Source of the DNA: Anaerolineales bacterium
Lineage (GTDB): Bacteria; Chloroflexota; Anaerolineae; Anaerolineales; UBA6663
NCBI GenBank assembly: GCA_034434015.1
Contig: DAOUAB010000059.1
Coordinates: 26,971-90,970 of the forward strand
Length of the DNA stretch: 64,000 nt
Reading direction: 5' to 3'
The translations under genes and the position numbers were made by a program. Positions within the stretch are counted from its first letter, which is position 1. Each line of letters opens with the position of its first letter. The notes below the pieces were generated by a model that worked only from the letters and a program-made list of their open reading frames with translations, searched no databases and was not told the DNA's origin. This document shows positions 15,756 through 39,496 of the stretch, piece by piece.

Positions 15756-16877
15756 TCACTCGAATTGTAACCGGCCGCCCAGCAGGGCTTGCGGTTTCCA
15801 GGGCCGGGCGCGGTCGCTGGACCAGGGGGCCGGCGGCGCGCTGACCAGGGTGCACAGCGCCAGGAGGGTGGCGTCGTAGTTCACGCGCCAGCCGGCGAAG
15901 TCGGACCAGGCCTGGTCCAGGTCCGGCTTGAGCGGCAGGCCGGCGGCGCGCAGACGTTCCACCGCGTCGTCGAACTCGGCGCGCGTGAGGCTGATGGGCT
16001 GGGCCGGGAAATGTGGATCGGGGTGATAGGGGAGGCCGAAGAAATCGCAAATGTGGCGCAGGGCCAGGTAGCCGGCGCGGATGCACAAAGCAGCCTGCGG
16101 GTTCGGCGGGTGGCCCAGCGTGGATTGGTACAATGCAGCGGCATCCAGGATCGCGCCGGCCGCCGTGATCCAGGAGTGATGCGGCTGAGGCGAGCGGAAG
16201 AAGGCCAGCACCGGCAGGGAAGTGTGCGTCTCGTCCAGTTGCGAGAACCAGATCTCCCACTCGCGCCACAGGTCGTTGAAGTGGTCCATGCGGCCGAGCG
16301 GGAAGGCCAGTTCGAACATATACACAGCCGAGGGCGGCGAGCCTGCCCGCGTCTCCAGCAGGTTGACAAGCGTCTCGCGCGCGGAGAAAGCCGAGTAGAT
16401 GGTGGGCAGGTAAGAGATGAGCAGGGCGGCCAGCGTCATGCCGAACGCAGCCTCGGAGAAGGACAGCGCCGCGATCAGCGGAGTCTGGGTGGGCGGGACG
16501 AAGCCGAGCGTCAGCAAGGTGGAGCCGCTCTCCAGGAAAGCGTCAAAGAAAGGCCGGACGCCCAGCGCCCAGAAGAGGCACGCGTAGCCCAGGCACACCA
16601 GCGTCAGCAGCGCCATGGGCAGGACGAGCAGGCTGACGGGCGCGTACATGGCCAGCGCCGCGTCCTGGGCCGCAAAGGACCGCGCTCGTTTCACCCGCAG
16701 ATGAAACGCCAGGCGCACCGCCCGGAAGATAGAGCGCGTGATCCGGTCCGGCGCCGAGCGTGGCAGCACGAAGGTCCGCAGGGCGGAGACCACGGCGCTG
16801 TAGATCAGCCAGACGCCAAGGCCGACCGCCAGGGCGCGCAGAGCGAGGTCGAGGGGGGTGAGGGGCGCATTGGTCAT
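15756..16877 (-). CDS. Membrane protein with an ion-channel-like pore segment
   Basis: TM helices flanking [13 protein letters not shown], followed by a soluble C-terminal domain ([14 protein letters not shown]). Confidence 0.6.
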
Positions 16878-17020
16878 GACGGAACTTAAGGTAAGATGGG
16901 CGGGGTCCAGGAGTGACTATACCGCCCCTGGCGGTTTTCGTCCCCTGCCGGAAACGGCAGCCTGGTTGCCCGCCTGGACAACGCCGTTGGCCGATGGGAA
17001 CCATAGCTCTGCCCACGGAT

Positions 17021-18178
17021 ATGCGCTCTCGCCTGGCCTGTTCCGCCGGGTTGATGGCGGTCTGGCTGGCGGGCGCGCTGCTGGCCGGCGCCTGCGCGGC
17101 GCCCGCGCCGGTCCGCCTGGGTTTCGCCGGGGAGCTGACCGGGAACCAGTCCGACCTGGGCATCGAAGGGCGCGATGGCGCGCTGCTGGCCGTGGCTGAC
17201 CTCAACGCCGCCGGCGGCGTCGCCGGCCGGCCCCTGGAATTAATCGTGCGCGACGACCTGGGGACGCCCGAAGGCGCGGCCGCCGCCGACCGCGCCCTGA
17301 TCGCCGAAGGCGTCGTCGCCATCCTCGGCCACATGACCAGCAGCCAGACGCTGGCCGGCCTGGCCGTTACCGAACCGGCCGGCGTGGTGATGTTCAGCCC
17401 CACCACCTCCACACCCGCGCTGAGCGGCCGCGACGATCTCTTCTTCCGCGTCATCACGCCGACCCCGGACCTGGCCTCCGCCCTCAGCCGCTACGCGGCG
17501 GACGTCGCCGGCCTGCGCCGGGTGGCGATCGTGCTGGACCTCGACAACGCCGGTTACACGCTGCCCTTCGCCGAAGCCTTCAGCGCCGATCTGCAGACGC
17601 GCGGCGGCCAGGTGGTCCGGCGGCTGGAGATCTCGTCAGCGGAGAACCCGGACTTCGCCGCCGTGGCCCGGGAACTGCAGGCCGCCGAACCGGACGGGGT
17701 CCTGCTGGTGTTGTCGGCGGTGGACGCGGCCCTGTTTGCCCAGCAGGCCCGGCTCGCCGGCTGGGCGGTCCCGCTGGTGGCGGCGCCCTGGGCGCAGACG
17801 GAGACGCTGTTGCGGACCGGCGGCGGCGCGGTGGAAGGGATGGTCCTCAGCGCGCCGTATGACCTGGTGCGCGAGGCGCCCGCTTTGCGCGATTTCCAGA
17901 GTCGTTACACGGAGCGTTTCGGGCGCGCGCCGGGCTTCGCGGCTGCCCTGGCCTACGAAAGCGTGCACGTCCTGGCGGCGGCGCTGCAACGCACCGGCGG
18001 GGCGGCGGCCGGCCTGGCCGAAGCCCTGAGCCAGGGCGACCGGGTGACCGTCCTGGGCGGCGAGCTGGCGCTGGATACGCACGGCGACGTCGTGCGGCCG
18101 GTGCCGCTCGTCGTGGTCCAGGCCGGCGCCTTCCGCTCGCTGGAGGCGCTCACGCCGACGACGCCCGGCAGCCCCTGA
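17021..18178 (+). CDS. Branched-chain amino acid-type periplasmic binding lipoprotein (alternative start 16994)
   Basis: LAGAC lipobox, VRLGFAGELTG, INAAGGVAGRPLEL-like DLNAAGGVAGRPLELIVRDD, GHMTSS, AYESV. Confidence 0.85.
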   Translation: MRSRLACSAGLMAVWLAGALLAGACAAPAPVRLGFAGELTGNQSDLGIEGRDGALLAVADLNAAGGVAGRPLELIVRDDLGTPEGAAAADRALIAEGVVAILGHMTSSQTLAGLAVTEPAGVVMFSPTTSTPALSGRDDLFFRVITPTPDLASALSRYAADVAGLRRVAIVLDLDNAGYTLPFAEAFSADLQTRGGQVVRRLEISSAENPDFAAVARELQAAEPDGVLLVLSAVDAALFAQQARLAGWAVPLVAAPWAQTETLLRTGGGAVEGMVLSAPYDLVREAPALRDFQSRYTERFGRAPGFAAALAYESVHVLAAALQRTGGAAAGLAEALSQGDRVTVLGGELALDTHGDVVRPVPLVVVQAGAFRSLEALTPTTPGSP

Positions 18179-18190
18179 GACCGTCCCGGC

Positions 18191-21100
18191 ATGTCCGCCT
18201 CCTCGACTGGCTCTCTCCTGAAGGTGCTGGCGCGGCTTATCGCCGTGCGCCTCGTGCTGCCGTTTTTCGGGCTCCTGCTGGCCTTGAGCGCGTTGACCCT
18301 GTACGTGCGCGGCCAGTCGATCGCGGCCGAGCGCGGCGCCGCCGCGCGCGAGGTGGCCGCCGCCGCCGCGCGCCATGTGGCGTTTGCGCGCGAGTGGCTG
18401 CAGATCGCGGCCGACGGCGGCGGCGACTATGTCGAGCGGTACTTCGACGCCGGCCGGCGCAGCCTGCCTTACTTCGACGTCGTCCATCAGGTGGATGCGG
18501 CCGGCCGCCTGGTGCGGTCCAGCCCGCCCGACCCGCGCTTCCCGGCCAGCTTTGATCTGTCCAACGAGCCCTTCGTCCGCGACGCCGGCCCGGAGCCGAT
18601 CTTGTTCGCGCCGTTCATCTCGCCGCGCACCGGCCGCCCGACGGCTTATCTGGCGCTGCGCCAGGCCGATGGCTCGGTGCTGGCCGGCGAACTGAACCTG
18701 GAATGGCTGCAGAGCCAGGTGCAGGCGAGCGCCGCGCCTGGGACCGCGGCTTTCGTGGTGGATCGGACCGGCCGATTGCTGGCCCACCCGCGCTTTGACC
18801 TGGTACAGCAGCAGCAGAATGTCGGCGACCTGGCCGTCGTGCGGGCCGGCCGCCTGGGGCCGGCGACGCGCCTGTACTTCTCCGGGCCGCGCCTCGTGCA
18901 GGGCAGCGTGGTCCCGGTGCCGGGCACGGACTGGGTGGCGGTCAGCGAGATTGACGTGTGGACCGCCTACGGCGGCTCCCTGGCCGGCCTGAGCGCGATC
19001 CTGGCGCTGGCGCTGGCCCTCTGGCTGGGGCTTCTGCGCGGCCTGCGGCTGCATCTGCGTCAGGAGGTGGCGGCGCCTCTCGAACGCCTCAACCAGGGCG
19101 CTCGCGCCCTGGCCGCCGGCAGTCTCACCGGGCCGGCTTTCCGTCAGTCCACGCGCTATGCCTTTGAGGAGGTCCAGGAACTGGCCGAGAGCTTCACGCG
19201 CATGGACGCCGCCATCCAGGCCCGCCAGGCGTCGCTGGAGGAGCGCGAGGCGCAATACCGGGCCTTGTTTGAGGGCGCGCCGGAGGCCATCCTCGTCTGC
19301 GAGGCCGAGACGGGCCGGATCGTGGACGCCAATCCCAACGCCGAGCGGCTTTTCGGCCTGCCGCGCGCCGCGCTGTTGGAAACCACGCTCGAGCAGTTGA
19401 GCCCGGAACGCCAGCCGGATGGCCGGCGTTCGGCGGACGCCGGCGCCGCTTACCAGGCGCAGGTGCTGGCCGGCGGGACGCCGCGCTTCGAGTGGCAGCA
19501 CCGCGGCGCCGACGGCCGCGCGCTGGTGTGCGAGGTGTCTCTGGCGCGCCTTCCGGCCGCCGATCGGGCGCTGATCCGCGTCAGCCTGATTGACATCGCC
19601 GAGCGCAAGCGGGCCCAGGCTGCCCTGGCCGAATCGGAGCAGCGCCTGGCCGCGATCTTCCGTGAGATGTCGTCGGCCATCGTGGTCTCCGCGCTGGACG
19701 ACGACTGCATCCTGGAAGTGAACGACGCCTTTGTGCGGCTCTCCGGCCATCCCCGCGAGGCCGCCCTCGGGCGCACCACGGTGGAACTGGGCCTGATCTC
19801 GGCCAAGGACCGCGAGCGCCTCATCGCCGAACTGCGCGAACACGGCGCCGCGCGCGGCGCCGAATGGACGTTGCGCAATCGCTCGGGCCAGGTCATCACC
19901 GGCCTGGCCTCCGCCTCGGCCATCACGATCAACGGCCGGCCGTGCCTCCTGACCCTGCTGACCGACATCACCGACCTGCGCCGGGCGGAGGCGCAATTGC
20001 GTCAGCTGTCGCGGGCGGTGGAACAGAACCCGGCCTCGATCATCATCACCGACCCGTCCGGCGCTATCGAGTACGTCAACCCCCGTTTCGAGGTGGTCAC
20101 CGGTTACACGCTGGCGGAGGTGCGCGGTCAGAATCCGCGCCTGTTGCGCTCCGGCGAAACGCCGCCCGAGGTCTACCAGCAGCTCTGGGAGACCATCGCG
20201 GCCGGCCGTGAATGGCGTGGGGAGTTTCACAATCGCAAGAAAAGCGGCGAGCTGTTCTGGGAGTCGGCCTCGATCTCGGCCATCACCGACGCCGCCGGCC
20301 GGATCACGCACTACGTCGCCGTCAAGGAGGACATCACCGAGCGCAAGCAGCGCGAGCGCGAGATGGAGACCCTGGTGCGCTTCAGCGCCAGCCTGCGGGC
20401 GGCGGCCTCGCGGGCGGAGATGCTGGCCATCATCCTGGACGAGGTGCTCGACCTGCTGGACGTCGAAGCGGCCGTGTTGATCATGCCGGACCCGCGCGGC
20501 GACCAGTTGGAGGTGGTGTCGGCGCGCGGCGCCTGGTCCGACTACGCCGGCCAGCGCCTGCCGCTGGCGGGCAGCCTGTCCGAGCGCCTGATGCACGAAG
20601 GGCTGGTGTACTGGAGCGATCGGCCGTTCACGGACCTGACGCCGGAGCAGGCCGACCGCTTCGGGACGATGCGGATCACGGCCGGCGCACCGCTGACGGT
20701 GCAGGCCCAGCTGGCCGGGGCTTTGTGGGTCGGCCGACGGGAACGCGGCCTGACGGCCAGCGAGGTGCGCCTGCTCGCCACCATCGCCGAGACCGCGGCC
20801 AACGCCCTGATGCGGGCCGACCTGCACGAGCAGACCGCGCGCCGCGCCGAACGCCTGGCCGTCCTGCACCTGATCGACACCGCCATCAACGAGAGCCAAG
20901 ACTTGCAGGCGACGTTGAGGGTGTTCCTGGGACACCTGGTGACTCAACTGGCCGTGGACGCCGCCGCCGTGTTGTTGTTCGACCCGGCCCGCCAGGTGCT
21001 GAACTACGCCGCCGGCTGGGGTTTCCGGACCACGGCGATCGAGGAGACCCTCCTGCGCCTGAACGAGACGGCGGCCGGCCGCGCGGCCATGCAGCGGCAA

Positions 21101-21934
21101 CCGGTCCGGGTGACGGACCTCTCGGCGGACGACGATTCGGACCGGCTGGCCCTACTGGGCAGCGAGGCGTTCCGCGCCTACTTCGCCCTGCCGCTGGTGA
21201 CCAAGGGCACGCTGAAGGGCGTGCTGGAAGTCTTCCACCGCCAGCCGCTGGACCCGGACCGCGACTGGCTCGATTTCCTGGAGGCCCTGGGAGCGCAGGC
21301 GGCCCTGGCGATCGACAACGCCCGCCTGTTCGAGGACTTGCAGCGCTCCAACCAGCAGCTGGCCGCGGCCTACGACGCCACCATCGAGGGCTGGTCGCGC
21401 GCCCTGGACCTGCGCGACCGGGAGACCGAGGGTCACACCCAGCGCGTGACGGCGATGACGCTGCGTTTGGCGCGCGCCCTGGGCGTGCCGGAGGCCGACT
21501 TGGAGCATATCCGGCGCGGCGCGCTGCTGCACGACATCGGCAAGATGGGCGTGCCGGACCGCATCCTGCTCAAACCCGGTCCGCTGACGGACGACGAATG
21601 GGTGATTATGCGCCAGCACCCCCTGCTGGCGGTGGATATGCTCGGCCCGGTCGAATATCTTCGCCCGGCGCTGGAGATCCCGTATTGCCATCACGAGCGC
21701 TGGGACGGCGCCGGTTACCCCAGCGGGCTGCGCGGAGAAGCCATCCCCAGGGCGGCGCGCATCTTCGCCGTGGTCGATGTCTGGGACGCGCTGCGGTCGG
21801 ACCGCCCCTACCGGCCGCGCTGGAGCCGGGCCGAGGCGCGCGAGCACATCGCGCGCGGCGCCGGGTCGCATTTCGATCCGGAGGTCGCCCGGGTCTTTTT
21901 GGAGCTGGAGGCCGACGGGGCGTTCGAATTCTAA
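18191..21934 (+). CDS. Membrane Cache-HAMP-PAS(x3)-GAF(x2)-HD-GYP c-di-GMP phosphodiesterase
   Basis: TM-periplasmic-TM, HAMP (EEVQELAESF), PAS repeats, GAFs, ETEGHTQRV, LLHDIGK, HHERWDGAGYP. Confidence 0.9.
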   Translation: MSASSTGSLLKVLARLIAVRLVLPFFGLLLALSALTLYVRGQSIAAERGAAAREVAAAAARHVAFAREWLQIAADGGGDYVERYFDAGRRSLPYFDVVHQVDAAGRLVRSSPPDPRFPASFDLSNEPFVRDAGPEPILFAPFISPRTGRPTAYLALRQADGSVLAGELNLEWLQSQVQASAAPGTAAFVVDRTGRLLAHPRFDLVQQQQNVGDLAVVRAGRLGPATRLYFSGPRLVQGSVVPVPGTDWVAVSEIDVWTAYGGSLAGLSAILALALALWLGLLRGLRLHLRQEVAAPLERLNQGARALAAGSLTGPAFRQSTRYAFEEVQELAESFTRMDAAIQARQASLEEREAQYRALFEGAPEAILVCEAETGRIVDANPNAERLFGLPRAALLETTLEQLSPERQPDGRRSADAGAAYQAQVLAGGTPRFEWQHRGADGRALVCEVSLARLPAADRALIRVSLIDIAERKRAQAALAESEQRLAAIFREMSSAIVVSALDDDCILEVNDAFVRLSGHPREAALGRTTVELGLISAKDRERLIAELREHGAARGAEWTLRNRSGQVITGLASASAITINGRPCLLTLLTDITDLRRAEAQLRQLSRAVEQNPASIIITDPSGAIEYVNPRFEVVTGYTLAEVRGQNPRLLRSGETPPEVYQQLWETIAAGREWRGEFHNRKKSGELFWESASISAITDAAGRITHYVAVKEDITERKQREREMETLVRFSASLRAAASRAEMLAIILDEVLDLLDVEAAVLIMPDPRGDQLEVVSARGAWSDYAGQRLPLAGSLSERLMHEGLVYWSDRPFTDLTPEQADRFGTMRITAGAPLTVQAQLAGALWVGRRERGLTASEVRLLATIAETAANALMRADLHEQTARRAERLAVLHLIDTAINESQDLQATLRVFLGHLVTQLAVDAAAVLLFDPARQVLNYAAGWGFRTTAIEETLLRLNETAAGRAAMQRQPVRVTDLSADDDSDRLALLGSEAFRAYFALPLVTKGTLKGVLEVFHRQPLDPDRDWLDFLEALGAQAALAIDNARLFEDLQRSNQQLAAAYDATIEGWSRALDLRDRETEGHTQRVTAMTLRLARALGVPEADLEHIRRGALLHDIGKMGVPDRILLKPGPLTDDEWVIMRQHPLLAVDMLGPVEYLRPALEIPYCHHERWDGAGYPSGLRGEAIPRAARIFAVVDVWDALRSDRPYRPRWSRAEAREHIARGAGSHFDPEVARVFLELEADGAFEF

Positions 21935-26131: not shown

Positions 26132-26869
26132 CTACAGTTCCAGCCCGGCCATCACGTCCACGATCGGCTGGACGGAGTGGGCGGCGTCATTCTTCAGCTC
26201 CTTGACGAGCCGCCCGTCCTTGATGAACACCACCCGGTCGGCGAAGGACGCCGCCCGCGGGTCGTGCGTCACCATCACGATGGTCGCTTTCAACTCGTCG
26301 CACGTCTTGCGCAGCAGCGCCAGGATGGCCGCGCCGGATTTCGAATCCAGGTTGCCCGTCGGCTCATCGGCCAGCACGATCTCCGGGTCGTTGACGAACG
26401 CGCGCGCGATGGCCACCCGCTGCTGCTGGCCGCCGGAGAGCTGGTCCGGCCGATGGTCCTTGCGGTCGGCCAGCCCCACCAGCGCCAGCAGCCGCGTGAT
26501 CTTGTCGCGGTGCTTCTCGAGGTTTTGTCCGTCGATGAGCAGCGGCAGGCCGACGTTCTCCTCGGCCGTCAGAGTGGGCAGCAGGTTGTAGAACTGGAAG
26601 ATGAAGCCCAGCTTGCGCCGGCGCACGAGCGTGATCTCGTCGTCGCTCAGGCGGGCCAGCGGCTGGCCGGCCAGGGTGATCTCGCCGTCGCTGGGGCCGT
26701 CCAGGCCGCCGAGCAGGTGCAGGAGCGTGGACTTGCCCGAGCCGGACGGGCCCATGACGGCCACGAACTCGCCTTTCTCCACGGTCAGGCTGACGCCGGC
26801 CAGGGCGTCCACGGTCACTGCGCCCATCTGGTACTGCTTCTTCACCTGGTGAGTTTCGAGAACGGCCAT
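26132..26869 (-). CDS. MacB/LolD-type ABC ATP-binding protein
   Basis: [46 protein letters not shown]; AGGAG RBS in the gap after the giant gene. Confidence 0.95.
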
Positions 26870-26938
26870 CGCTGAGTCTCCTCTTCTTCTTGCAGGGCGC
26901 CGGCTTCCGGCGCGCGATCTCGCGGCTGGAAGGCGCTC

Positions 26939-29900
26939 TTATCGGACGGCGTAGACGCGCACCGGCTGGCTCTTGCCGCGGATCTCGGCCTCGCCCAGGT
27001 CCACCAGCGCATGGCGCGCCGCGGCCTCGCCCAGCGCCGCGACCGTGTACTCGCTGATGAGCAGGTCATGCTCGGGATAGGTCTTGGTCAGGGCCTGGAT
27101 ACGCGCCCCGGTGTTCATGGCGTCGCCGATGACGGTGTATTCCTGGCGCTCCTCCGAGCCGGTGGCGCCGGCCACCACCTCGCCGGTGTTAATCCCCAGC
27201 CCGAAGCGCAGGGTCGGCTGGCCGAGCGTCTCGCGCCTGGCGTTGACGTAGGCCAGGCCCTGGCGGATGGCCAGCGCGGCCTGGACCGCGCGCTCGGCGT
27301 GGTCGGGATGTTCCGTGGGCGCGCCGAAGACGCACACCGCCTCGTCGCCGACGAAGCGGTTGACGATGCCGCCGTGCGCCTCCACCGCCAGGATGACCAC
27401 TTCGAAATACTGGTTGAGCGCCGCCATCACTTCCTCGGGCGGCCGGCTCTCGGCAAAGGCCGTCGAGCCGCGCATGTCCACGTACAGGACCGTGATGGTC
27501 TTGCGCTCGCCGGCCAGCGAGACGCGCCCGGCCAGCACCGCCTCGCCCACCTCGCGGCTGACGTAGCGCCCGAACAGGTCGCGCAGGCGTTCGCGCTCGC
27601 GCAGGCCGGCCACCATCTCGTTGAAGGCGCCGGCCAGTTGCGCCAGCTCGTCCCCCGAGCCGGCCTGGAAACGTGCGCGCAAATCGCCCTGGGCCACGCG
27701 CCGCGCGCCGCCCGCCAGCTGCTCCACCGGCGCGGCCACCGCCGCCCCCAGCGCCTGCGCCAGCAGCACGCCGGCCAGCAGCGCGCTCAGCCCGATCAGG
27801 CCGAAGAGCGTGCGGCTCTCGGCCAGGAAGGCCTCGACGCTGGCCCGCCGCAGCCCGATGTTCAGCGTGCCGAGTTGTTCGCCCTGCCGGCCGCGGCGCA
27901 AGGGGGCCGCCGCCACCCACACCGCCTCGCCCCGCCAGCGCGCGTCGGCCACGCGCGCCTCGCTCGCGGTCACGCCGGGCTCGCCCTGCAGGTTGAGCTG
28001 GTCGGAGAACACGATGCGGCCATCCCGATCCACCCAGGCCGTGTACGCGATCAGGTCGCCCCGGAACCGGGCGACGATGTCTTGCAGCCGGCCGAAGTCC
28101 AGGCCGGCCGCTCCCGCCGGCCCCCCGCCTCCCGGTTGTCCCATCTGCCCGGCGAGATTCAGGGGATCCGGCAGGGACGCGGTGGCGGTCATCGGCTGGC
28201 CGGCCAGCTCCGAAAACGTGTCCCCGAACCAGCGGGCCGAGGTCAGCACCGACGTCTGCACGGTGCGTTCCACCTCGCGGCGCTCGATGGGGATGACGAT
28301 CAGGCCCAGGCCGCCCACCAGGCCGGCCACCAACAGCGTCATCAGGATCGTCAGCCGGGTCCGCATGGAGACGCGGCCGGCGCGGATTTCGAGCGGCGTG
28401 TAGTCGCCCGCCTGCACGCGAGTGGCCTGCGCCGCCAGCCCGCGGGCGGCGCGCGCCAGCGGCCTGATCAGGGCGGAGCCGAGCGCCAGGCCCGCCAGCA
28501 CGATCAGGCCGCCGCCCAGCCAGAGCGTGCGCTGGAGGTTGCCCAGGAACTGGCGCAGCGTGTCGAAGCGCAGGGTGACGCGCACGTAGCCGAGCACGAC
28601 GCCGGCCCGGTTCTTCACCGGCGCCACGGCCGCGAGCAGGGGCGCGCCGGCCTCATCGGCGCCCTCGGTGACCGTGACGGTCTCACGCTCAGCCGGCGGC
28701 GGCCGAGTCTCGCCGACCTGGTCCGGATCCAGGCCGAAGAGCACCACGCCGTCGGCCGTGGTCAGCGCGTACTCGGCGACGCCGTTCTCGCTGAAGCTGT
28801 CCAACAACGATTGGAAGCGCAGCAGCGCCGGCGCGTCCAGCGGGAACGCGCTGCCGGACAGCGCCGTGAAGTCCAGGCGGTCGGCCTCCGGCGGCAGGGC
28901 CGCCTCCACCGTGGCCGCGTTCCAATCCGCCAGCGCCGCCAGCATGTCGCGCGACTGCGCCCGCAGGTAACCGCCGGCGTGCTGGACCACGGCCAGCACG
29001 AGCACGGCCAGCACGGCCAGCAGCAGCGCGGCCGTGCCCAGCACGAAGCGGGTCTGGAGCGAGCCGCGGCCCAGGAAGCCGGCCACGCGCCGCGCCGTGA
29101 GGGGCGCCGGCTGCTCCGGCTTGAGCGTCTCGAGGGCGGCGCCGCGCAGGACCGCGTTGGCGGGAAGGTAGGCGGCCAGGGCGCAGACGAGCGGGGACGT
29201 GATCAGGCCGACCAGGCCGATGGCCAGCACGCCGGGCAGTGTGCGGCCAAGCGCGCTCCAGGGGTCATAAGCCGTCGCGCCCACGCTGCTGCCGCCGTAG
29301 ACGGCCGTGAAGACCAGGGTCAGACCGGCGGCGGCGAGCAGGCCCACCCCGCCGGCCAGCAGGCCCATCAGCGCGGCCTCGCCCACCACGACGGCGCGGA
29401 CCTGCCTGCGGGTCGCGCCCAGCGCGCGCAGTTGGCCGAACTCCCGCCGCCGTTCGGTGACGCTCAGCAGAGTCGTGTTCACCACGCCGAGCGCCGCCGC
29501 CACGACGGCCAGCAGCAGGAAGGCGTTGAAGAGCGTCGGCACGGTGTCCATGGCCTGCAAGATCAGGTCCGAGTACTGGCGCATCGTGTCGAAGGACAGC
29601 CCGTGCCGTTCAGCCACCCCCCGCAGGTCGGCCTCCAGCGCGGGCAGGTCGGCGTCCGGCCGCGCCTGGATGAACAGGCTGAACGGCTGGCCGCTGTCGA
29701 AGCGGTCCTCGACCACGTTGCTGATGAGCGTGGCGCCCACGAACGTCGTTCCCAGGCCGGCGACGGTGCACGCCACCGGCCCGTCGGCGCCGGTGACCGT
29801 TAACGCGTCGCCCAGGCCGACGTTGTTCCGGGCGGCCACAGCCGGCGTCATCAGCAGGCCACAGCCGCGCTCCATGATCGGCAACGCCGTCTCCCAACCG

Positions 29901-32900
29901 CCCTCCTTGAAGCGTATAAAGAGCGTGTCCGCCTGCCGCAACTGGCGCGGGTCGAGCACGAACGAGAAGTAGGCGTCGCCCAAGAACGCCAGCTCGGGGA
30001 CGATGACGAACTTGAACGGCATCACCTCGGCGCGTCCGTTGGCGGCGGCGCTGAACTCATCGATCGCGGCCTGCGGCACCCGCATCGAGTCCATCTCGGT
30101 GTAGGCGGCCAGCCCCTCTTCGATGCGGATGACCGACGTCACCCAACTGTCCTCCCGCCGCAGGGCCTCCAGTTGCGGGCCGAACGACTCGTAGAGGAAG
30201 AAGGTGATGAAGCCCGTCAGCCCCCCGATCATGGTCAGGCTGACCGCCAGCGTCGCCACGGTCAACAGGACGCGCCCGCGCCCGCGGCGCACGTTGTCGG
30301 CCATCAGGCGGCCGGCCGCGCCGCCCAGCCGCGCCAGGAGCGGCCGCGCGGTCGCGCCGATCCCGCCGACCAGGGCCGGCATCAGCAGCGCTACGCCGGC
30401 CAGCCAGGCGGCGCCGAAGCCCACCGTTGCCCAGACGTTGGCCGGCGGCGAGAGCCACAGCGCCGGCGGGGCCAGCAGCAGGTAGGCCGGGACGGCCAGC
30501 AACAGCGCGGCCCCGCCCAGCCCCAGGCGCCCCGAGGCGTGTTCGAGACCGGCGGCCTCGGCGGCGCGCAGGGCCGTCAGCGGCGAGACGCGCATGGCCT
30601 GCCGGGCCGGGACGAGCGCGGCCAGCAGCGTGACCCCCAGGCCGGCGGCCGTGGCCAGCGCGAAGCTGAAGGCGGACGGCGCACCCGGCGCGAAAGCGTT
30701 CAGGATCGGGTTGTCGAGCGAGCGGATCAGCGCGATCACGCCCTGGCCGAAGACCGGGCCGAGGGCGACCCCCAGCAGCACGCCCAGCCCGCCGATGAAG
30801 ACGGCCTCGGCCAGCACCAGGCGCACGATCTGGGCGCGCGTCATGCCCAGCGCGCGCAGCAGGCCGATCTGCTGGCGGCGCTGCGTGATGGACATGGCGA
30901 AGGTGTTGAACACCAGGAAGCCGGCCGCGAGTGTGAGGCCGACCCCGACGCCCTTGAACATCGGGTCGAGCTGGCTCCACAACCCCTCGCCGATGGCGCG
31001 CAAGTCCTCGGTGCGCGTGACCACGCCGATGATGGCGCCGGCCAGCACATCGCCGCCGACGGTCATGGCGGCGCCGAGCAGGACGGCCAGCACGCTCAGG
31101 GTGGCGCGCGTGCGTTGCTGTGCCAGGCTGCGCCACATCAACGTCCACGCCAGCGAGCGCGGCAACCGGCGGCGCGGGGGAGCCGGTCGTTTCGCGGCCG
31201 GCGACGCGAACCCCGCCGCGCCCTCGGCGCGCATGGCCACGGCCGGGTCCACCTCCGCGGCGCGCCCGGCCGGCCAGAGCGCGGCCAGCATGGCGATGAC
31301 GGGGCCGATGACGAGCGCGGCCAGCGCCAGCGGCCAGGGCAGCGGCAGCCCTTCCAGCGGGCTGGCGCCCGTCATCGCCTCCATGGCCGTGTTCATGCCC
31401 TGCCCGAACAGCGCCGCCAGCCCCAGGCCGCCCAGCGCGCCCAGCGCCGCCCCGCCGAAACCCAGCAGGCCGGCCTCCAGCACCACCAGGCCGCGCACCT
31501 CGCCGCGCGTCAGGCCGACCGCGCGCAGCGCGCCGATCTCGCGCTGGCGTTCCAGCACGGACGCGAACAGCGTCACGACGATGCCCAGCGCCGCCACCAG
31601 CCCGGAGAGCGAGGTCAGCCCGCCGAAGAGCGCCTGGATCGGGCCGATGAGCTGATCCACGACGCCGGTCAACTGCGCCGTGTCGAACAGGCCCAGCTCG
31701 GTGCGATGCCGCTCGCGCAGCGCGCCCACCCGCGCTTCTAAGTCGGCGCGCTCAACGCCGGCTTTCGGCGTGAACAGGATTCCGAACGGGTGCGAGCCGA
31801 AGTATTCGGCGGCGGCGGCCGGGCTGATCACCGGGAAGCCGCCGCCCACGGCCGCCACCGTGAACGCGACCCGGCCCTTGAGTGTGTCGATCTCCAGCGT
31901 GTCGCCGGGGTGCTTGTCCAGCTTGCGTCCGGTCAACTCCGGCAACAGGATGGCCGGCTCGTTTTCGGCAAAGCGGCGCTCGGCTTCCTCCCAGGACCCT
32001 TCGGCGATGGGGAAAGTGCGTTTGCCGCGAATGGCGGATATCGGCAGGGCGAAGGCGTACTGGTCGCCGGCGCCGCTCTCCACGCCCACGCCGGGGATGG
32101 CGACGTTGGCGAAGTAGTTGATCTCGGCCACAGCGCGCAACGAGTCGATGTCGGCCTGCACGTCGGGCGGGATGGGCGGCAGGCTCGGCAGGGCGGCCGA
32201 GGCGCCTAGCGAGGTGCCGGGCGGGAAGGGCCGGATCAGCACGACCTGCCCGCTGAACATGGAGGTGTTGAACGAGAGCAGGAACTCGCTCATGAACAGC
32301 GCCAGGCCGGTGAGGGCGATGACGAGCATGAAACTGAGGGTGAGGGCGGCGGCGGTCAGCGGCGCGCGCGAACCCTGCCGGCGCAGGCTGGCCGCCGCCA
32401 GCCGGCCGGCCAGCCAACGGCCGCGCTCCAGCAGCGCGAGCAGGCCGTCCAGCGCCAGCGGCAAGGCGGCCGCCACCGCCGCGCTGAAGGTCAGCGCCGG
32501 CGCAAAGATCGGGCCGTAACTGGGCGTGAGGGCCGTGCGCGCGTATTCGACGCCCCAGGCGTACAGGCCGGCGGTCGCGGCCAGCAGGCCGATCACGACC
32601 GCGACCAGCCAGGCGCGCCGGCTGCGGCGTTTCGCTTCGCCGGCCAGAGGCGGCTTGAACGCCTCCAGCGGGCTCACTCGCGCCGCCGCGCGCGCCAGGC
32701 CGAAGGTCACGGCCACCGTCACCAGCACGCCGGCGCCCGCGGCCAGCAGCCAGGCATCCCAGGGGATAACGGCGCCGGCAGCGCCCTCGTCCCCATTGAG
32801 GGCGCGGACGACGGCTACCATGCCGGCCCCCAGCCCCAGGCCGAACAGCAGGCCAAGCGCCGAGCCGAGCCCGCCCACCAGGCCGGCCTCCAGCAGAGCC

Positions 32901-33811
32901 TGGGCCAGCACCTGCCGGCGCGTCATGCCCAGCGTGCGCAGCTGACCGATCTCGCGCTTGCGTTCCGCCAGCGTGATGGCGAAGGCGTTGAAGACCAGGA
33001 AGCCGCCGGCCAGCAGCACGGCGAAGCCGGACACCGGCAGGGCCAGGTTGACGAGGCTGTAGAGGGAGTTCAGGCTGCTGCTGCCGGCCGCGCTGGTGAC
33101 GATATACTGGTCCCCGAGCGCGGCCTGCAGTGAGACCCGAACCGTTTCCGGGTTCTGGCCGGGCGCGAGCCGGACCTGGACGGCCGTGGCCGCGCCGGGC
33201 GCGTCGAAGGCCGCGCTCAGCGCCGCGATCGGCAACCAGGCTGTGGGCGTCGTCGCCGCCGCTTCGCGGCGCGGCTTCAGCAGGCCGACGATGGTATAGG
33301 TGTGAGTCTGAGCGCCGGTGGTCAGCCTGATCTGGCCGCCGACGCTGTGGCCGCGCGGCGCGGCCCAATCCGAGGGCAGGAGGACGGCCCGGCTGTCGCC
33401 GGCCTGCAGAAACCGGCCGGCCGCCAGCTCGTAGGGTGTGAGCGTGCGGGCGGGGTCCACCCCCAGCAGGGCCAGACCGGTGCCCTCCAGGGTTAGGCCG
33501 CCCATGCTGAAGGTCGCGTCGCGGCCCGGTTTGCCTTCCAGGCCGCGATACAGCGGCGCGGCCACTTCCACTTCCGGCCGCGCCGCTAACGTTTCCAGGA
33601 GGGTGAGGGGAATTTGGGCGCTGGCCGCGCTGGTGATCTCCAGGTCGGCGCCGGCCAGGCGGCTCTCACGGGCCAGGCGCGCGCTCTCCGTGACCGTAGC
33701 GCCCACCAGGCGCATGGCGAAGATCATGGCCACGCCCAGGGCGATGGCGGTGGCCGTAAAGGCGGTGCGGGCCACGCGTGCGCGCAGGTTGCGGACGGCC
33801 AGAAGGAGCAA
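26939..33811 (-). CDS. Giant fusion: four FtsX/MacB permease modules + two TM-sensor-TM-HAMP units + class III adenylate/guanylate cyclase (~2290 aa; probable TTG start at 33811)
   Basis: Four ER-REIG-LR-LG-T-type FtsX motifs; HAMP GDELAQLAGAFNEM; cyclase VLYVDMRGST, RFVGDE, GLGINTGEVVAG, YTVIGDAMNTGAR; one uninterrupted frame; GGGAG RBS before TTG. Confidence 0.9.
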   Translation of the reverse strand: MLLLAVRNLRARVARTAFTATAIALGVAMIFAMRLVGATVTESARLARESRLAGADLEITSAASAQIPLTLLETLAARPEVEVAAPLYRGLEGKPGRDATFSMGGLTLEGTGLALLGVDPARTLTPYELAAGRFLQAGDSRAVLLPSDWAAPRGHSVGGQIRLTTGAQTHTYTIVGLLKPRREAAATTPTAWLPIAALSAAFDAPGAATAVQVRLAPGQNPETVRVSLQAALGDQYIVTSAAGSSSLNSLYSLVNLALPVSGFAVLLAGGFLVFNAFAITLAERKREIGQLRTLGMTRRQVLAQALLEAGLVGGLGSALGLLFGLGLGAGMVAVVRALNGDEGAAGAVIPWDAWLLAAGAGVLVTVAVTFGLARAAARVSPLEAFKPPLAGEAKRRSRRAWLVAVVIGLLAATAGLYAWGVEYARTALTPSYGPIFAPALTFSAAVAAALPLALDGLLALLERGRWLAGRLAAASLRRQGSRAPLTAAALTLSFMLVIALTGLALFMSEFLLSFNTSMFSGQVVLIRPFPPGTSLGASAALPSLPPIPPDVQADIDSLRAVAEINYFANVAIPGVGVESGAGDQYAFALPISAIRGKRTFPIAEGSWEEAERRFAENEPAILLPELTGRKLDKHPGDTLEIDTLKGRVAFTVAAVGGGFPVISPAAAAEYFGSHPFGILFTPKAGVERADLEARVGALRERHRTELGLFDTAQLTGVVDQLIGPIQALFGGLTSLSGLVAALGIVVTLFASVLERQREIGALRAVGLTRGEVRGLVVLEAGLLGFGGAALGALGGLGLAALFGQGMNTAMEAMTGASPLEGLPLPWPLALAALVIGPVIAMLAALWPAGRAAEVDPAVAMRAEGAAGFASPAAKRPAPPRRRLPRSLAWTLMWRSLAQQRTRATLSVLAVLLGAAMTVGGDVLAGAIIGVVTRTEDLRAIGEGLWSQLDPMFKGVGVGLTLAAGFLVFNTFAMSITQRRQQIGLLRALGMTRAQIVRLVLAEAVFIGGLGVLLGVALGPVFGQGVIALIRSLDNPILNAFAPGAPSAFSFALATAAGLGVTLLAALVPARQAMRVSPLTALRAAEAAGLEHASGRLGLGGAALLLAVPAYLLLAPPALWLSPPANVWATVGFGAAWLAGVALLMPALVGGIGATARPLLARLGGAAGRLMADNVRRGRGRVLLTVATLAVSLTMIGGLTGFITFFLYESFGPQLEALRREDSWVTSVIRIEEGLAAYTEMDSMRVPQAAIDEFSAAANGRAEVMPFKFVIVPELAFLGDAYFSFVLDPRQLRQADTLFIRFKEGGWETALPIMERGCGLLMTPAVAARNNVGLGDALTVTGADGPVACTVAGLGTTFVGATLISNVVEDRFDSGQPFSLFIQARPDADLPALEADLRGVAERHGLSFDTMRQYSDLILQAMDTVPTLFNAFLLLAVVAAALGVVNTTLLSVTERRREFGQLRALGATRRQVRAVVVGEAALMGLLAGGVGLLAAAGLTLVFTAVYGGSSVGATAYDPWSALGRTLPGVLAIGLVGLITSPLVCALAAYLPANAVLRGAALETLKPEQPAPLTARRVAGFLGRGSLQTRFVLGTAALLLAVLAVLVLAVVQHAGGYLRAQSRDMLAALADWNAATVEAALPPEADRLDFTALSGSAFPLDAPALLRFQSLLDSFSENGVAEYALTTADGVVLFGLDPDQVGETRPPPAERETVTVTEGADEAGAPLLAAVAPVKNRAGVVLGYVRVTLRFDTLRQFLGNLQRTLWLGGGLIVLAGLALGSALIRPLARAARGLAAQATRVQAGDYTPLEIRAGRVSMRTRLTILMTLLVAGLVGGLGLIVIPIERREVERTVQTSVLTSARWFGDTFSELAGQPMTATASLPDPLNLAGQMGQPGGGGPAGAAGLDFGRLQDIVARFRGDLIAYTAWVDRDGRIVFSDQLNLQGEPGVTASEARVADARWRGEAVWVAAAPLRRGRQGEQLGTLNIGLRRASVEAFLAESRTLFGLIGLSALLAGVLLAQALGAAVAAPVEQLAGGARRVAQGDLRARFQAGSGDELAQLAGAFNEMVAGLRERERLRDLFGRYVSREVGEAVLAGRVSLAGERKTITVLYVDMRGSTAFAESRPPEEVMAALNQYFEVVILAVEAHGGIVNRFVGDEAVCVFGAPTEHPDHAERAVQAALAIRQGLAYVNARRETLGQPTLRFGLGINTGEVVAGATGSEERQEYTVIGDAMNTGARIQALTKTYPEHDLLISEYTVAALGEAAARHALVDLGEAEIRGKSQPVRVYAVR

Positions 33812-33966
33812 GCCTGACTCCCTGTCCCCGCCCCTGCGGGGTTTACGATCTGAGTTTTTATGGAAGCGCACCCGATTGTAGCACTTACTGCGCGTTCTGC
33901 TGGGACCAAACCAGAAAGGGTGCCTTCGGGCTTTTGGGCTGACCCGTCCGCCTGACAGACAGCCAT

Positions 33967-34224
33967 CACCCACGTCATGCCGGCGAAAGCCGGCACCAGG
34001 AGCAGACGCGCGCAGAAGAGCGGGAGCTTCTGGGCCCCGGCCTTCGCCGGGGCGACGGTGGAAATGGTGGCGCCCAGGCGCGGCGCCTGTTCCCGTCATC
34101 CAGCACCCACGTCATGCCGGCGAAAGCCGGCCTCCAGGAGCAGACGCGCGCAGAAGAGCGGGAGCTTCCGGGCCCCGGCCTTCGCCGGGGCGGCGGTGGA
34201 AATGGTTGGGCCAGGGCGCGGCGG
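33967..34224. repeat. Two near-identical ~120-bp REP-like palindromic units, 137-bp period
   Basis: cacccacgtcatgccggcgaaagccggc..ccccggccttcgccgggg at 33967 and 34104. Confidence 0.85.
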
Positions 34225-34272: not shown

Positions 34273-34300
34273 TTGACATACGGGTGAGCCGGAGTATAAT
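34273..34300 (+). promoter_or_regulatory. Consensus sigma70 promoter for the infA leader
   Basis: TTGACA-N16-TATAAT. Confidence 0.8.
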
Positions 34301-34451: not shown

Positions 34452-34715
34452 ATGCCGAAAAGCGACGACAAAATCATGGTTGAGGGGGTGGTCGTGGAGG
34501 CCATGCCGAGCACCACGTTCCGGGTCCAACTGGACAACGGCCACACGGTGCTGGCCTACCTCTCCGGCCGGCTGCGCAAGAACTACATCCGCATCCTGCT
34601 GGGCGACCGCGTCAAGCTTGAGCTTTCGCCCTACGACCTGACCCGCGGGCGCATCACGTATCGTTTCACCGCGCAGCAGCAGCAGCCCGTCCAGCCGCCG
34701 GCCGAAGCCGCTTAG
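34452..34715 (+). CDS. infA: Translation initiation factor IF-1 with a short C-terminal extension
   Basis: [51 protein letters not shown]. Confidence 0.95.

Positions 34716-37543: not shown

Positions 37544-39496
<1,953 letters not shown>

What the first reader, a model, noticed from the sequence alone, without database searches (positions are those of the whole stretch)
26132..33811. Candidate new system: ABC (FtsX/MacB) permease fused to a nucleotidyl cyclase, with its own ATPase
A single ~2290-aa frame contains four FtsX modules (ERKREIGQLRTLG, ERQREIGALRAVG, QRRQQIGLLRALG, ERRREFGQLRALG), i.e. two tandem double-FtsX permeases. These are followed by two TM-extracellular-TM-HAMP units and an intact-looking class III cyclase, and the next gene is a LolD/MacB ATPase with its own RBS. 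MacB/FtsX/BceB-type ABC systems work by mechanotransmission, and Bce-type transporters signal to separate histidine kinases. I do not know of a described covalent permease-HAMP-cyclase fusion. Inference: a transporter-receptor in which ATP-driven conformational cycling or substrate binding directly sets cNMP synthesis.
Basis: partly seen in the sequence, partly recalled or inferred. Interest (0 to 1): 0.93.

Follow-up and report, generated by a model that had tools for sequence, protein, structure and literature searches.

The report
ABC permease fused to receptor cyclase
A real, recurrent 2,290-residue membrane protein of uncultured Chloroflexota joins two MacB/BceB-type ABC-transporter permeases to a Cache-HAMP-adenylyl-cyclase receptor and travels with its own ATPase gene, so the transporter's work cycle is probably read out directly as a second-messenger signal; I found no paper describing this arrangement.

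Summary
One uninterrupted minus-strand ORF (TTG 33811 to TAA 26939, 2,290 aa) carries 4 FtsX modules, a HAMP domain and a class III cyclase. A LolD/MacB-type ATPase gene follows 69 nt downstream.

It is not an assembly accident. About 60 other database proteins have the same fusion at 36-58% identity, all from Chloroflexota MAGs or metagenomes. They carry one, two or three permease units.

- **Permease:** each unit has 10 TM helices; the model of unit B is closest in fold to E. coli YbbP and B. subtilis BceB.
- **Sensor:** it consists of two TM-Cache-TM units. Only the second has a true HAMP.
- **Cyclase:** the catalytic residues are intact, but the purine-specifying Lys is an invariant Arg in this clade.
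- **Partner gene:** the ATPase (68-91% identical between loci) is the only conserved neighbour. It is often shared by tandem arrays of fusion genes, and is found in about half of the loci.
- **Variants:** sister proteins replace the cyclase with a PP2C phosphatase. One variant, seen on four contigs, lacks the Cache units, so the last permease helix runs straight into HAMP.

Coupling of the ABC cycle to cAMP synthesis, a covalent analogue of Bce modules, is the best-supported mechanism but remains an inference. I rate it a new variant of a known kind.

The parts
26939..33811 (-). Fusion gene, 2,290 aa plus stop: permease A, permease B, two Cache sensor units, HAMP and a class III cyclase. TTG start at 33809-33811.
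   Evidence: identical length in P0001/P0228; collinear homologues P0002, P0004, P0014, P0016 and P0039
33818..33822 (-). GGGAG ribosome-binding site 6 nt before the TTG start. A TACAAT -10-like box lies about 60 nt further upstream.
   Evidence: read directly from the sequence
31190..33811 (-). Permease unit A (aa 1-874): 10 TM helices, with two large MacB_PCD extracytoplasmic domains (aa 41-255 and 508-734). Coupling-helix motifs ERKREIGQLRTLG (32927-32965) and ERQREIGALRAVG (31514-31552). Conserved post-TM10 block AMRAEGAAG (31211-31237).
   Evidence: 51-63% identical to the permease of the short forms
29132..31159 (-). Permease unit B (aa 885-1560): 10 TM helices, a short TM11-12 loop and one large extracytoplasmic domain between TM17 and TM18 (the BceB/YbbP layout). 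Motifs QRRQQIGLLRALG (30845-30883) and ERRREFGQLRALG (29417-29455).
   Evidence: AF2 pLDDT 82.3, pTM 0.78; Foldseek top hits YbbP 9GE6 at 5e-16 and BceB 8S5G/8G4C/7TCG at 1e-13 to 2e-12 over about 650-715 columns
28349..29062 (-). Sensor unit 1 (aa 1584-1821): TM21, a PDC/sCache-like extracellular domain, TM22, and an AS1-plus-connector HAMP remnant (28385-28465).
   Evidence: (sCache_3_2, below cutoff)
27752..28348 (-). Sensor unit 2 (aa 1822-2020): TM23, a second PDC/sCache-like extracellular domain, and TM24.
   Evidence: homologous to the single Cache unit of the short forms, which passes the Pfam sCache_3_2 cutoff
27596..27745 (-). HAMP domain (aa 2023-2072).
   Evidence: 48.5 bits, cutoff 25; HtrII
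26966..27505 (-). Class III nucleotidyl cyclase catalytic domain (aa 2103-2282). Key residues: D2112, D2156, R2152 (at the Lys position, codon 27356-27358), T2226, N2233, R2237.
26132..26869 (-). LolD/MacB-type ABC ATPase, 245 aa. Motifs: Walker [10 protein letters not shown], signature LSGGQQQR, Walker B VLADEPT (E169), H-loop VTHD. GAGGAG RBS. No terminator was predicted in the 69-nt spacer after the fusion gene.
   Evidence: orthologues 68-91% identical sit next to fusion genes in other loci

Best explanation
**What it is (shown).** A genuine single-chain membrane protein of a Chloroflexota (Anaerolineales-like) bacterium. It belongs to an uncharacterised family built on one chassis: [10-TM double-FtsX Type VII ABC permease] x 1-3, then [TM-Cache-TM] x 0-2, then HAMP, then an output domain. 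The output is a class III cyclase, or in sister proteins a PP2C phosphatase. A dedicated LolD-like ATPase gene lies in the cluster.

**How it most likely works (inferred).**
1. ATPase dimers dock on the four coupling helices of each chain.
2. ATP binding and hydrolysis drive MacB-type mechanotransmission in the permease units. The pace or conformation of that cycle depends on an envelope- or membrane-associated substrate engaged by the variable extracytoplasmic domains.
3. These movements pass to the sensor TM bundle and HAMP. The likely routes are the highly conserved post-TM linker (the minor coupling helix region), lateral TM contacts, and possibly contacts between the extracytoplasmic domains and the Cache domains.
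4. HAMP sets the geometry of the homodimeric cyclase and therefore the rate of cNMP synthesis. The product is most probably cAMP.
5. The Cache domains add or tune a ligand input.

Functionally this would be a covalent, cyclase-output analogue of the BceAB-BceS 'transporter as sensor' module.
For: **Architecture and integrity.**

**Recurrence.** 60 further 90%-identity clusters carry FtsX plus Guanylate_cyc, collinear with this protein at 36-58% identity. There are 20 loci in Anaerolineales, Anaerolineae, Chloroflexia and Ardenticatenales MAGs and 79 metagenome loci.

**No split orthologue.** The double-sensor module occurs only in fused proteins. Two apparently unfused 795-aa entries turned out to be a contig-edge truncation and a frameshifted fused gene.

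**The ABC part looks functional.**
- All four coupling-helix motifs are kept (their position after TM2 follows PMC5985334).
- All ATPase motifs are intact.
- The ATPase is the only conserved neighbour. It is 68-91% identical across loci whose permeases are only 40-60% identical, and it often lies within 50 bp of a fusion gene.
- Gene arrays such as [long][ATPase][short] and [short][long][ATPase] occur.

**Fold.** Permease B matches YbbP and BceB over its full length.

**Coupling hints.**
1. The post-TM10 linker block has column identity 0.83. That equals the catalytic core and is far above the extracytoplasmic domains at 0.27-0.58.
2. The same chassis drives a PP2C output (P0043, P0067; SpoIIE 1e-54).
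3. P0024 lacks all four sensor TM helices and both Cache domains, so TM20 continues directly into an intact HAMP and cyclase. It is seen full-length on four contigs, with an ATPase 1 kb upstream.

**Cyclase competence.** D, D, N and R are invariant in 59 members (one has Asn at the second Asp), and Thr is present at the second specificity site in 58.

**Precedent.** BceS signalling requires BceAB and its ATPase, and BceB-BceS form a membrane complex with a HAMP (PMC10314905, PMC4513084, PMC5985334).
Against: - No experiment exists, and every member comes from a MAG or a metagenome.
- The sensor has its own Cache domains. A conventional ligand-to-HAMP-to-cyclase route could work without any input from the permease.
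- An ATPase was found in the same locus for only 18 of 38 fusion genes. Three loci with at least about 5.4 kb of flank on both sides have none (L001, L026, L031), so those copies would need an ATPase supplied in trans.
- My AF2 models are single-chain fragments and say nothing about contacts between permease and sensor.
- The Cache-less form is a single cluster.
- The invariant Arg at the Lys position (39 of 59 members) leaves both activity and product unverified.
- The stoichiometry implied is 2 chains with 8 NBDs. This is large and untested.
Confidence: 0.55

Rival explanations
1. **Ordinary Cache-HAMP receptor cyclase with an independent transporter attached.** An extracellular ligand binds the Cache domain(s) and alone controls the cyclase. 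The fused ABC permease does separate work, such as detoxifying or extracting the same compound, or it serves as a membrane scaffold. Under this reading the fusion only secures co-localisation and 1:1 expression (a Rosetta-stone fusion).
For: - Both extracellular sensor domains fold as PDC/Cache domains resembling WalK, CitA and KinD.
- sCache_3_2 passes the Pfam cutoff in the short forms.
- TM-Cache-TM-HAMP-output is a self-sufficient receptor design in many proteins. This point rests on general knowledge and on the generic HAMP hits.
- The ATPase is missing from about half of the loci.
Against: - The double-sensor module was never found unfused.
- The Cache-less P0024 keeps an intact HAMP and cyclase directly on the permease.
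- The linker is as conserved as the catalytic core.
- Cache domains are among the least conserved parts, at 0.40-0.55.
Confidence: 0.3
2. **Reverse coupling.** The Cache-HAMP module, or locally made cNMP, regulates the transporter. The transporter is the output and the cyclase is not the endpoint.
For: The only support is that the parts are physically linked, and that HAMP domains could in principle transmit in either direction. No tool result supports this reading specifically.
Against: - Neither the permease nor the 245-aa ATPase has a cNMP-binding or other regulatory domain.
- The output position is interchangeable with PP2C, a typical signalling output.
- No conserved cNMP effector lies next door.
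Confidence: 0.05
3. **Same architecture, different product.** The window's clade does not make cAMP. The invariant Arg at the purine-specifying position could redirect the enzyme to another nucleotide (cGMP or a non-canonical cNMP), or it could make the enzyme a poor or regulatory pseudo-cyclase.
For: - R2152 replaces the canonical Lys in 39 of 59 family members. The sister clade keeps Lys.
- The closest solved relative is the guanylyl cyclase Cya2 (2W01), which has Glu/Gly at these two positions.
Against: - Lys to Arg is a conservative change.
- The partner residue is Thr, as in the cAMP-forming OaPAC/bPAC that align alongside.
- All metal-binding and transition-state residues are intact.
- The PycC matches are no stronger than generic class III homology.
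Confidence: 0.2
4. **Artefact.** A chimeric assembly, or a read-through of separate genes: a permease gene or genes plus a receptor-cyclase gene.
For: None was found. Its only basis is that the window comes from a high-GC, presumably metagenome-assembled contig, which carries one obvious in-frame stop elsewhere, in dnaK.
Against: - The ORF is continuous, with coding GC3 throughout.
- All junctions are reproduced in dozens of independent assemblies at 36-58% identity.
- The errors seen in relatives split the gene rather than fuse it.
Confidence: 0.02

Closest known systems
Bce-type modules (BceAB ABC transporter with the BceS-BceR two-component system, Bacillota)
   Same: - A 10-TM single-chain double-FtsX permease with a separate NBD dimer.
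[quoted passage not shown]
- The transporter itself is the sensor, and signalling needs its ATPase (PMC10314905, PMC9169098, PMC4513084).
- Permease B has the BceB layout and matches BceB structures over its full length.
   Different: - Here the partner is covalently fused, so permease and sensor are 1:1 instead of 1 BceB to 2 BceS.
- The output is a class III cyclase or a PP2C phosphatase, not a histidine kinase.
- The sensor carries Cache ectodomains, which BceS lacks.
- Up to three permease units occur per chain.
- The host phylum is Chloroflexota.
- There is no specific sequence relationship to BceB: 12-14% identity, TM-score about 0.45, and no hit in sequence searches.
E. coli YbbAP(-TesA) Type VII ABC system
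   Same: - It is the best structural match to permease B (9GE6/9GE7, E 5e-16).
- The permease has 10 TM helices and works with a LolD-like ATPase. The window ATPase matches YbbA at 1.5e-66.
- It extracts hydrophobic compounds from the membrane (PMC12646458), which is a plausible type of substrate here.
   Different: - YbbP has no signalling domain.
- Its partner is the TesA hydrolase.
- Identity is 17%.
Receptor-type class III adenylyl/guanylyl cyclases with TM-sensor-TM-HAMP-CHD organisation. Examples: the mycobacterial HAMP cyclases (from memory) and Synechocystis Cya2 (closest solved catalytic domain).
   Same: The C-terminal 450-700 aa have exactly this design. The CHD matches Cya2/IlaC at 1e-31 to 1e-34 and OaPAC/bPAC at 1e-19 to 1e-23, with all catalytic residues aligned.
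   Different: - None of those carries an ABC permease.
- The window clade has Arg where adenylyl cyclases have Lys and Cya2 has Glu.
Other transporter-fused or transporter-dependent sensors (from memory, not tested here): Amt-fused histidine kinases, the SLC5-like domain of CbrA, DctA/DcuB co-sensors, and K+-channel-cyclase fusions of ciliates and apicomplexans.
   Same: The principle is shared: a transport protein is used as the input device of a signalling enzyme.
   Different: The transporter classes are different, none of them an ATP-driven Type VII ABC. The outputs also differ, except in the protist channel-cyclases.
CARF-LolE_TM effectors of type III CRISPR systems (PADLOC model CARF_m8--CARF_LolE_TM)
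   Same: An FtsX/LolE-like membrane module is fused to a nucleotide-signalling domain. It matches the window protein at 1e-23 through the FtsX part.
   Different: The logic is the opposite: a cyclic-oligonucleotide sensor (CARF) controls a membrane effector. There is no cyclase, no HAMP, and no ATPase partner is implied. The match reflects generic FtsX homology.

Membership tests
Type VII ABC transporter permease (MacB/FtsX fold) | FtsX 4-TM module (PF02687) | tested here: met
   Four stretches, E 6e-61, 204 bits against a cutoff of 25.5. Sequence hits to MacB, LolC/E/F, YtrF and 5XU1.
Type VII ABC transporter permease (MacB/FtsX fold) | Large extracytoplasmic domain between the first two helices of a module (MacB_PCD / Porter-Sabre) | tested here: met
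   Pfam finds MacB_PCD x2, 88.7 bits. The third extracytoplasmic domain, in permease B, is modelled as an alpha/beta domain, and the model matches the MacB periplasmic domain 3FTJ. The module at TM11-14 has only a loop of about 30 aa.
Type VII ABC transporter permease (MacB/FtsX fold) | Major coupling helix after TM2, and a cognate LolD/MacB-clade NBD | tested here: met
   The motif E/Q-R-x-R/Q-E/Q-I/F-G-x-L-R-x-L/V-G is present in all four modules. Its position follows PMC5985334. The adjacent ATPase matches LolD at 1e-74 and the MacB NBD at 4e-73. This is sequence evidence only.
Type VII ABC transporter permease (MacB/FtsX fold) | ATP-driven mechanotransmission, meaning work done outside the membrane | not testable with these tools
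   Requires biochemistry or structures of the complex.
Bce-type antimicrobial-peptide sensing module | 10-TM BceB-type permease with a single large extracytoplasmic domain between TM7 and TM8 | tested here: inconclusive
   Permease B has this layout and matches BceB at E 1e-13 over about 710 columns, though YbbP scores better. Permease A has two large extracytoplasmic domains. Sequence searches do not retrieve BceB.
Bce-type antimicrobial-peptide sensing module | Partner is an intramembrane-sensing histidine kinase (BceS) with a response regulator, encoded as separate genes | tested here: not met
   The signalling part is fused, has Cache ectodomains, and ends in a cyclase or a PP2C. The protein therefore works like a Bce module but is not a member of the family.
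Bce-type antimicrobial-peptide sensing module | Signalling depends on the transporter's ATPase activity (flux sensing) | not testable with these tools
   This is the key experiment.
Class III nucleotidyl cyclase (CHD, PF00211) | Domain match above the curated threshold | tested here: met
   65.6 bits against a cutoff of 21.9. PDB relatives Cya2, IlaC, OaPAC, bPAC, CyaB and CyaC.
Class III nucleotidyl cyclase (CHD, PF00211) | Two metal-binding Asp plus the transition-state Asn and Arg | tested here: met
   D2112, D2156, N2233 and R2237. D, N and R are invariant in 59 family members, and the second Asp is present in 58 of 59.
Class III nucleotidyl cyclase (CHD, PF00211) | Adenine-specifying Lys paired with Asp or Thr | tested here: not met
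   The Lys position holds Arg (R2152) in the window protein and in 39 of 59 members. The other 20 have Lys. Thr is present at the second site (T2226). The product is therefore unverified.
Class III nucleotidyl cyclase (CHD, PF00211) | Active as a dimer with active sites at the interface | not testable with these tools
   All six residues lie in one CHD, so a homodimer is expected. This is an inference from established knowledge of class III cyclases.
HAMP domain | PF00672 match directly after a TM helix | tested here: met
   aa 2023-2072, 48.5 bits against a cutoff of 25, right after TM24. The segment after TM22 is only an AS1-plus-connector remnant and gives no Pfam hit.
Cache/PDC extracellular sensor domain | Long N-terminal helix, a 5-stranded sheet with flanking helices, placed between two TM helices | tested here: met
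   The AF2 model (pLDDT 83.8) shows this fold twice. Foldseek hits include WalK, CitA, KinD and PctA-C. In Pfam, sCache_3_2 is below its cutoff in the window protein (20.8 against 28.4) but above it in the short forms and the PP2C forms (33.7-34.1 bits).

The most novel reading that the evidence does not exclude
A family of single-chain 'transporter-receptors' in which the ATP-powered conformational cycle of a Type VII ABC unit is the primary input to a HAMP-coupled output, either a cyclase or a PP2C phosphatase. Under this reading, Chloroflexota would hold tandem arrays of paralogous flux sensors for envelope-active compounds, differing in their extracytoplasmic domains. These sensors would signal through a cyclic nucleotide instead of a phosphorelay. 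The clade-invariant Arg at the base-recognition site might also point to an unusual nucleotide product.
Probability: 0.4. Interest if true: 0.85.

Novelty: new variant of a known kind. Interest (0 to 1): 0.72.

Why it matters
**For ABC transporter signalling.** How Type VII ABC transporters talk to signalling proteins is known from a single paradigm, BceAB-BceS. There the contact is non-covalent, partly mediated by lipids, and hard to dissect. A natural covalent fusion has three practical advantages:
- the stoichiometry is fixed;
- the output (cNMP) is easy to measure and can be scored in an E. coli cya strain;
- natural variants already exist, with or without Cache domains, with one to three permease units, and with a cyclase or a PP2C output.

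Together these would make transporter-to-signal coupling directly testable.

**For cyclic-nucleotide signalling.** This adds a new class of membrane input module to class III cyclases. It is a real case of the old idea that cyclase membrane anchors might be transporter-like.

**For Chloroflexota biology.** It suggests how these abundant, mostly uncultured filamentous bacteria sense envelope-active compounds.

Tried and rejected
1. **Assembly artefact or split genes: rejected.** The junctions are reproduced in many assemblies. A whole-library search with the double-sensor module found only fused proteins or fragments. Two apparently unfused proteins, P0079 and P0085, proved to be a contig-edge truncation and a frameshifted fused gene.
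2. **Membership of the Bce family proper: rejected.** There is no histidine kinase, Cache domains are present, and BceB is not found by sequence.
3. **Anti-phage defence (Pycsar or CARF-LolE): rejected.** The PADLOC matches are generic homology to class III cyclases and to FtsX. No effector gene is present.
4. **Other conserved partner genes: none found.** I looked for an MFP/HlyD adaptor, a cNMP-binding effector or a hydrolase in the window and in about 60 loci. Only the ATPase recurs. The neighbour clustering was noisy because of shadow ORFs in high-GC DNA.
5. **A regulatory RNA in the upstream region: none found.** Rfam returned only chance-level matches.
6. **TAG recoding as an explanation for the dnaK stop: rejected.** TAG ends 12 of 40 genes in the window.
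7. **Literature on Arg at the Lys position: nothing usable.** Searches gave nothing. In all, seven literature searches found no paper on this fusion.
8. **P0197, a second apparently Cache-less form: not used as evidence.** Its HAMP looks degenerate and its GGD motif reads GRE.

Full report

Yes. On the minus strand there is one open frame from 34099 to the TAA at 26939. Its third-position GC is 0.92, the coding signature of this ~70% GC window. The most plausible start is the TTG at 33811, preceded by GGGAG at a 6-nt spacing. This gives 2,290 aa, exactly the length of the database entry P0001 and of a second record, P0228, from another archive.

Pfam finds the following:
- four FtsX modules (E 6e-61);
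- two MacB_PCD domains;
- one HAMP (aa 2023-2072);
- a class III cyclase domain (aa 2103-2282).

The next gene, 69 nt downstream with its own GAGGAG/ATG, is a 245-aa ABC ATPase. It is closest to LolD, the MacB NBD and YbbA, and all its catalytic motifs are intact. No terminator is predicted between the two genes.

**2. Anatomy**

A hydropathy scan gives 24 TM helices.
- **Permease A (aa 1-874)** has 10 TM helices and two large extracytoplasmic domains.
- **A Pro/Arg-rich linker** follows.
- **Permease B (aa 885-1560)** also has 10 TM helices. Its first loop is short and it has one large domain between its 7th and 8th helices.
- **Coupling helices.** Each of the four FtsX modules keeps the E-R-x-R-E-I-G-x-L-R-x-L-G motif. 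This motif follows TM2, where MacB has its major NBD-coupling helix (PMC5985334).
- **Fold of permease B.** An AlphaFold2 model built from a 24-sequence alignment (pLDDT 82.3, pTM 0.78) matches the single-chain double-FtsX permeases over its full length: E. coli YbbP (9GE6/9GE7, E 5e-16) and B. subtilis BceB (8S5G, 8G4C, 7TCG; E 1e-13 to 2e-12). MacB, LolC/E and HrtB match over half the length.
- **Sensor region (aa 1584-2100; pLDDT 83.8).** It folds as two consecutive TM-PDC/Cache-TM units. Foldseek matches WalK, CitA, KinD and PctA-C sensor domains.
- **HAMP.** Only the second sensor unit is followed by a full HAMP. After the first, only an AS1-plus-connector remnant is left, and it runs into TM23.

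**3. The cyclase**

The closest solved relatives are Synechocystis Cya2 and its engineered derivative IlaC (E 1e-31 to 1e-34), followed by the photoactivated adenylyl cyclases. Both metal Asp (D2112, D2156), the transition-state Asn and Arg (N2233, R2237), and the Thr at the second specificity position (T2226) are present.

The base-recognising Lys is replaced by Arg (R2152). Across 59 family cyclases, D, N and R are invariant, and the second metal Asp is present in 58. The specificity pair splits the family in two. It is Arg/Thr in 39 members (the window's clade, both short and long forms). It is the canonical Lys/Thr in 19, and one further Lys member has Ala in place of Thr. The domain therefore looks catalytically competent. 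cAMP is the most likely product, but this has not been verified.

**4. It is a family, not an accident**

- **Database proteins.** A search returned 60 further clusters with FtsX plus cyclase. They are collinear with the window protein at 36-58% identity and are named only by automatic pipelines.
- **Length classes.**
  - Short forms (~1,330-1,400 aa): a permease A-type unit, one Cache unit, HAMP and cyclase.
  - P0035 (1,409 aa): permease B, two Cache units, HAMP and cyclase.
  - ~2,300-aa forms: both permeases.
  - ~2,800-3,200-aa forms: three permease units.
- **Taxonomy.** A scan of one genome per species found 20 loci, all in MAGs labelled Anaerolineales, Anaerolineae, Chloroflexia or Ardenticatenales. 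One MAG had at least seven copies.
- **Metagenomes.** A metagenome scan added 79 loci.
- **Closest orthologue.** It is 82% identical in permease A and lies in an Anaerolineales MAG (L018). The window most likely comes from that lineage; this is an inference.
- **Split orthologues.** A search of 1.84 billion representatives with the double-sensor-plus-HAMP segment found 26 clusters at E<=1e-30, all long proteins or fragments. The two that looked unfused are a contig-edge truncation (L108) and a fused gene with a frameshift inside the permease (L109).

**5. The ATPase partner**

tblastn with the window ATPase finds orthologues at 68-91% identity in the fusion loci. Other ABC ATPases nearby are only ~36-38% identical.
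- Of 38 complete or near-complete fusion genes, 18 have this ATPase in the same locus, and 10 of them within 50 bp. In the window's clade it usually lies downstream. In the Lys clade it lies upstream.
- Fusion genes often sit in tandem arrays that share one ATPase gene: [2,285 aa][ATPase][1,343 aa] in L105; [1,331][2,297][ATPase], followed after two small ORFs by a plain double-FtsX permease, in L106; and [ATPase][3,008] in L107.
- Clustering all the flanking ORFs shows no other conserved neighbour. There is no MFP adaptor, no cNMP effector and no hydrolase.
- Three loci with at least about 5.4 kb of flank on each side lack an ATPase (L001, L026, L031). 'With its own ATPase' is therefore true here and common, but not universal.

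**6. Evidence bearing on mechanism**

Three observations favour real coupling between the permease and the output.
- **The linker is highly conserved.** In 34 short forms, the block after the last permease helix has column identity 0.83. This block covers the region of the minor coupling helix and the linker to the sensor helix. Its conservation equals that of the catalytic core. The extracytoplasmic domains (0.27-0.58) and the Cache domain (0.40-0.55) are the most variable parts. This pattern is expected if paralogues differ in what they recognise but share a transmission device.
- **The output can be swapped.** The same chassis carries a different output in P0043 and P0067: FtsX x2, sCache_3_2, HAMP and SpoIIE/PP2C (E 1e-54). 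One such gene is also followed by the ATPase (L012).
- **A Cache-less variant exists.** P0024 (1,781 aa) has lost all four sensor helices and both Cache domains. The last helix of permease B continues directly into an intact HAMP and cyclase, and the topology is preserved. The form occurs full-length on four contigs of 30-72 kb, and an ATPase lies 1 kb upstream.

By analogy with Bce modules, BceS cannot sense without BceAB and its ATPase, and the two form a membrane complex through the BceS TM/HAMP region (PMC10314905, PMC4513084, PMC5985334). On that basis the most likely mechanism is that the ATP-driven conformational cycle of the permease units modulates HAMP and the dimeric cyclase. The cycle would be gated by an envelope- or membrane-associated substrate. 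The Cache domains would provide an additional or tuning input.

All of this is inference; nothing here measures activity. I give this mechanism about 0.55. I give about 0.3 to the rival in which the Cache domains alone drive the cyclase and the permease does independent work.

**7. Surroundings**

- **Upstream, same strand:** the hrcA-grpE-dnaK-dnaJ-prmA heat-shock cluster and a small P-loop kinase-like gene.
- **Between that cluster and the fusion gene:** infA on the plus strand, with a perfect sigma-70 consensus promoter.
- **Downstream, opposite strand:** a stand-alone receiver, a LuxR-type response regulator, a PAS-GAF histidine kinase and a large Cache-PAS-GAF-HD protein.

None of these recurs next to homologues, so they are not part of the system.

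**8. Comparison and novelty**

The protein works like a Bce module but is not one: it has no histidine kinase, it has Cache domains, and it shows no specific sequence relationship to BceB. Its permease unit is a YbbP/BceB-type Type VII ABC permease. Its C-terminus is a standard Cache-HAMP receptor cyclase.

What is new is the covalent union, its modular expansion (1-3 permease units, 0-2 Cache units, two outputs), and its arrays that share one ATPase. Seven full-text searches found no paper describing it. The proteins exist in databases only under automatic names. I rate it a new variant of a known kind, with interest 0.72.

Noticed in passing
window 38876-38878 (minus strand), inside dnaK (37544-39496): An in-frame TAG replaces the Tyr codon of the conserved [10 protein letters not shown] motif. 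It splits dnaK into ORFs of 206 and 443 aa (Pfam HSP70 positions 1-190 and 192-598). TAG is an ordinary stop in 12 of 40 genes in the window, so recoding is unlikely. A sequencing error, a population variant or a pseudogene is more likely.
   Followed up: partly
window 33960-34223: Two copies of a ~137-bp direct repeat (93-94% identical) with internal GC-rich hairpins such as GCCGGC-GAAA-GCCGGC. They lie between the infA promoter and the start of the fusion gene. There is no other copy in the window and no Rfam match. Function unknown; it might be a regulatory region of the fusion gene.
   Followed up: partly
window 34273-34300 (+) and 34452-34715 (+): A perfect 12/12 sigma-70 consensus promoter (TTGACA-16-TATAAT) in an AT-rich island drives infA (IF-1, 87 aa), divergent from the fusion gene. 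An IF-1 gene also lies 2.7 kb from the fusion genes in L106, which hints at local synteny.
   Followed up: no
L004 1897-6099; L012 ~2441-6500; P0043, P0067: Sister proteins have the same permease-Cache-HAMP chassis but a SpoIIE/PP2C phosphatase in place of the cyclase. In L012 the gene is followed by the same ATPase clade.
   Followed up: partly
L110 8001-13346 (P0024); also P0197: A natural deletion form lacks both Cache units and all four sensor helices, so the last permease helix is joined directly to HAMP. It occurs on four contigs. P0197 is a second deletion form that looks decayed.
   Followed up: yes
L109 80-3632; L108 21-2402; L018 ~16027-16071: Database proteins that look like unfused sensor-cyclases come from a frameshift (L109) or a contig edge (L108). 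The closest orthologue of the window gene (L018) also changes frame between the second Cache unit and HAMP.
   Followed up: partly
L002/L003/L049 173-5878; L110 6195-7804: In the Lys clade, a DUF4058 gene lies between the ATPase and the fusion gene. In L002 a 1,318-aa STAND-type (AAA_16/TPR) cyclase lies there as well. It is unclear whether these belong to the system.
   Followed up: no
window 133-4101 (minus strand): Three tandem paralogues of the M42 glutamyl aminopeptidase family lie here, with a pyridoxamine-phosphate oxidase gene between the first and second.
   Followed up: no
window 16895-21931 (plus strand): A Peripla_BP_6 binding protein is followed directly by a 1,251-aa Cache-PAS x3-GAF x2-HD (HD_5) protein, a large sensor phosphohydrolase candidate. 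The window is generally rich in signalling genes.
   Followed up: no
L106 22597-23996: An 873-aa double-FtsX permease with no output domain lies just after the [short][long][ATPase] array. It may represent the ancestral, unfused transporter of the family.
   Followed up: no
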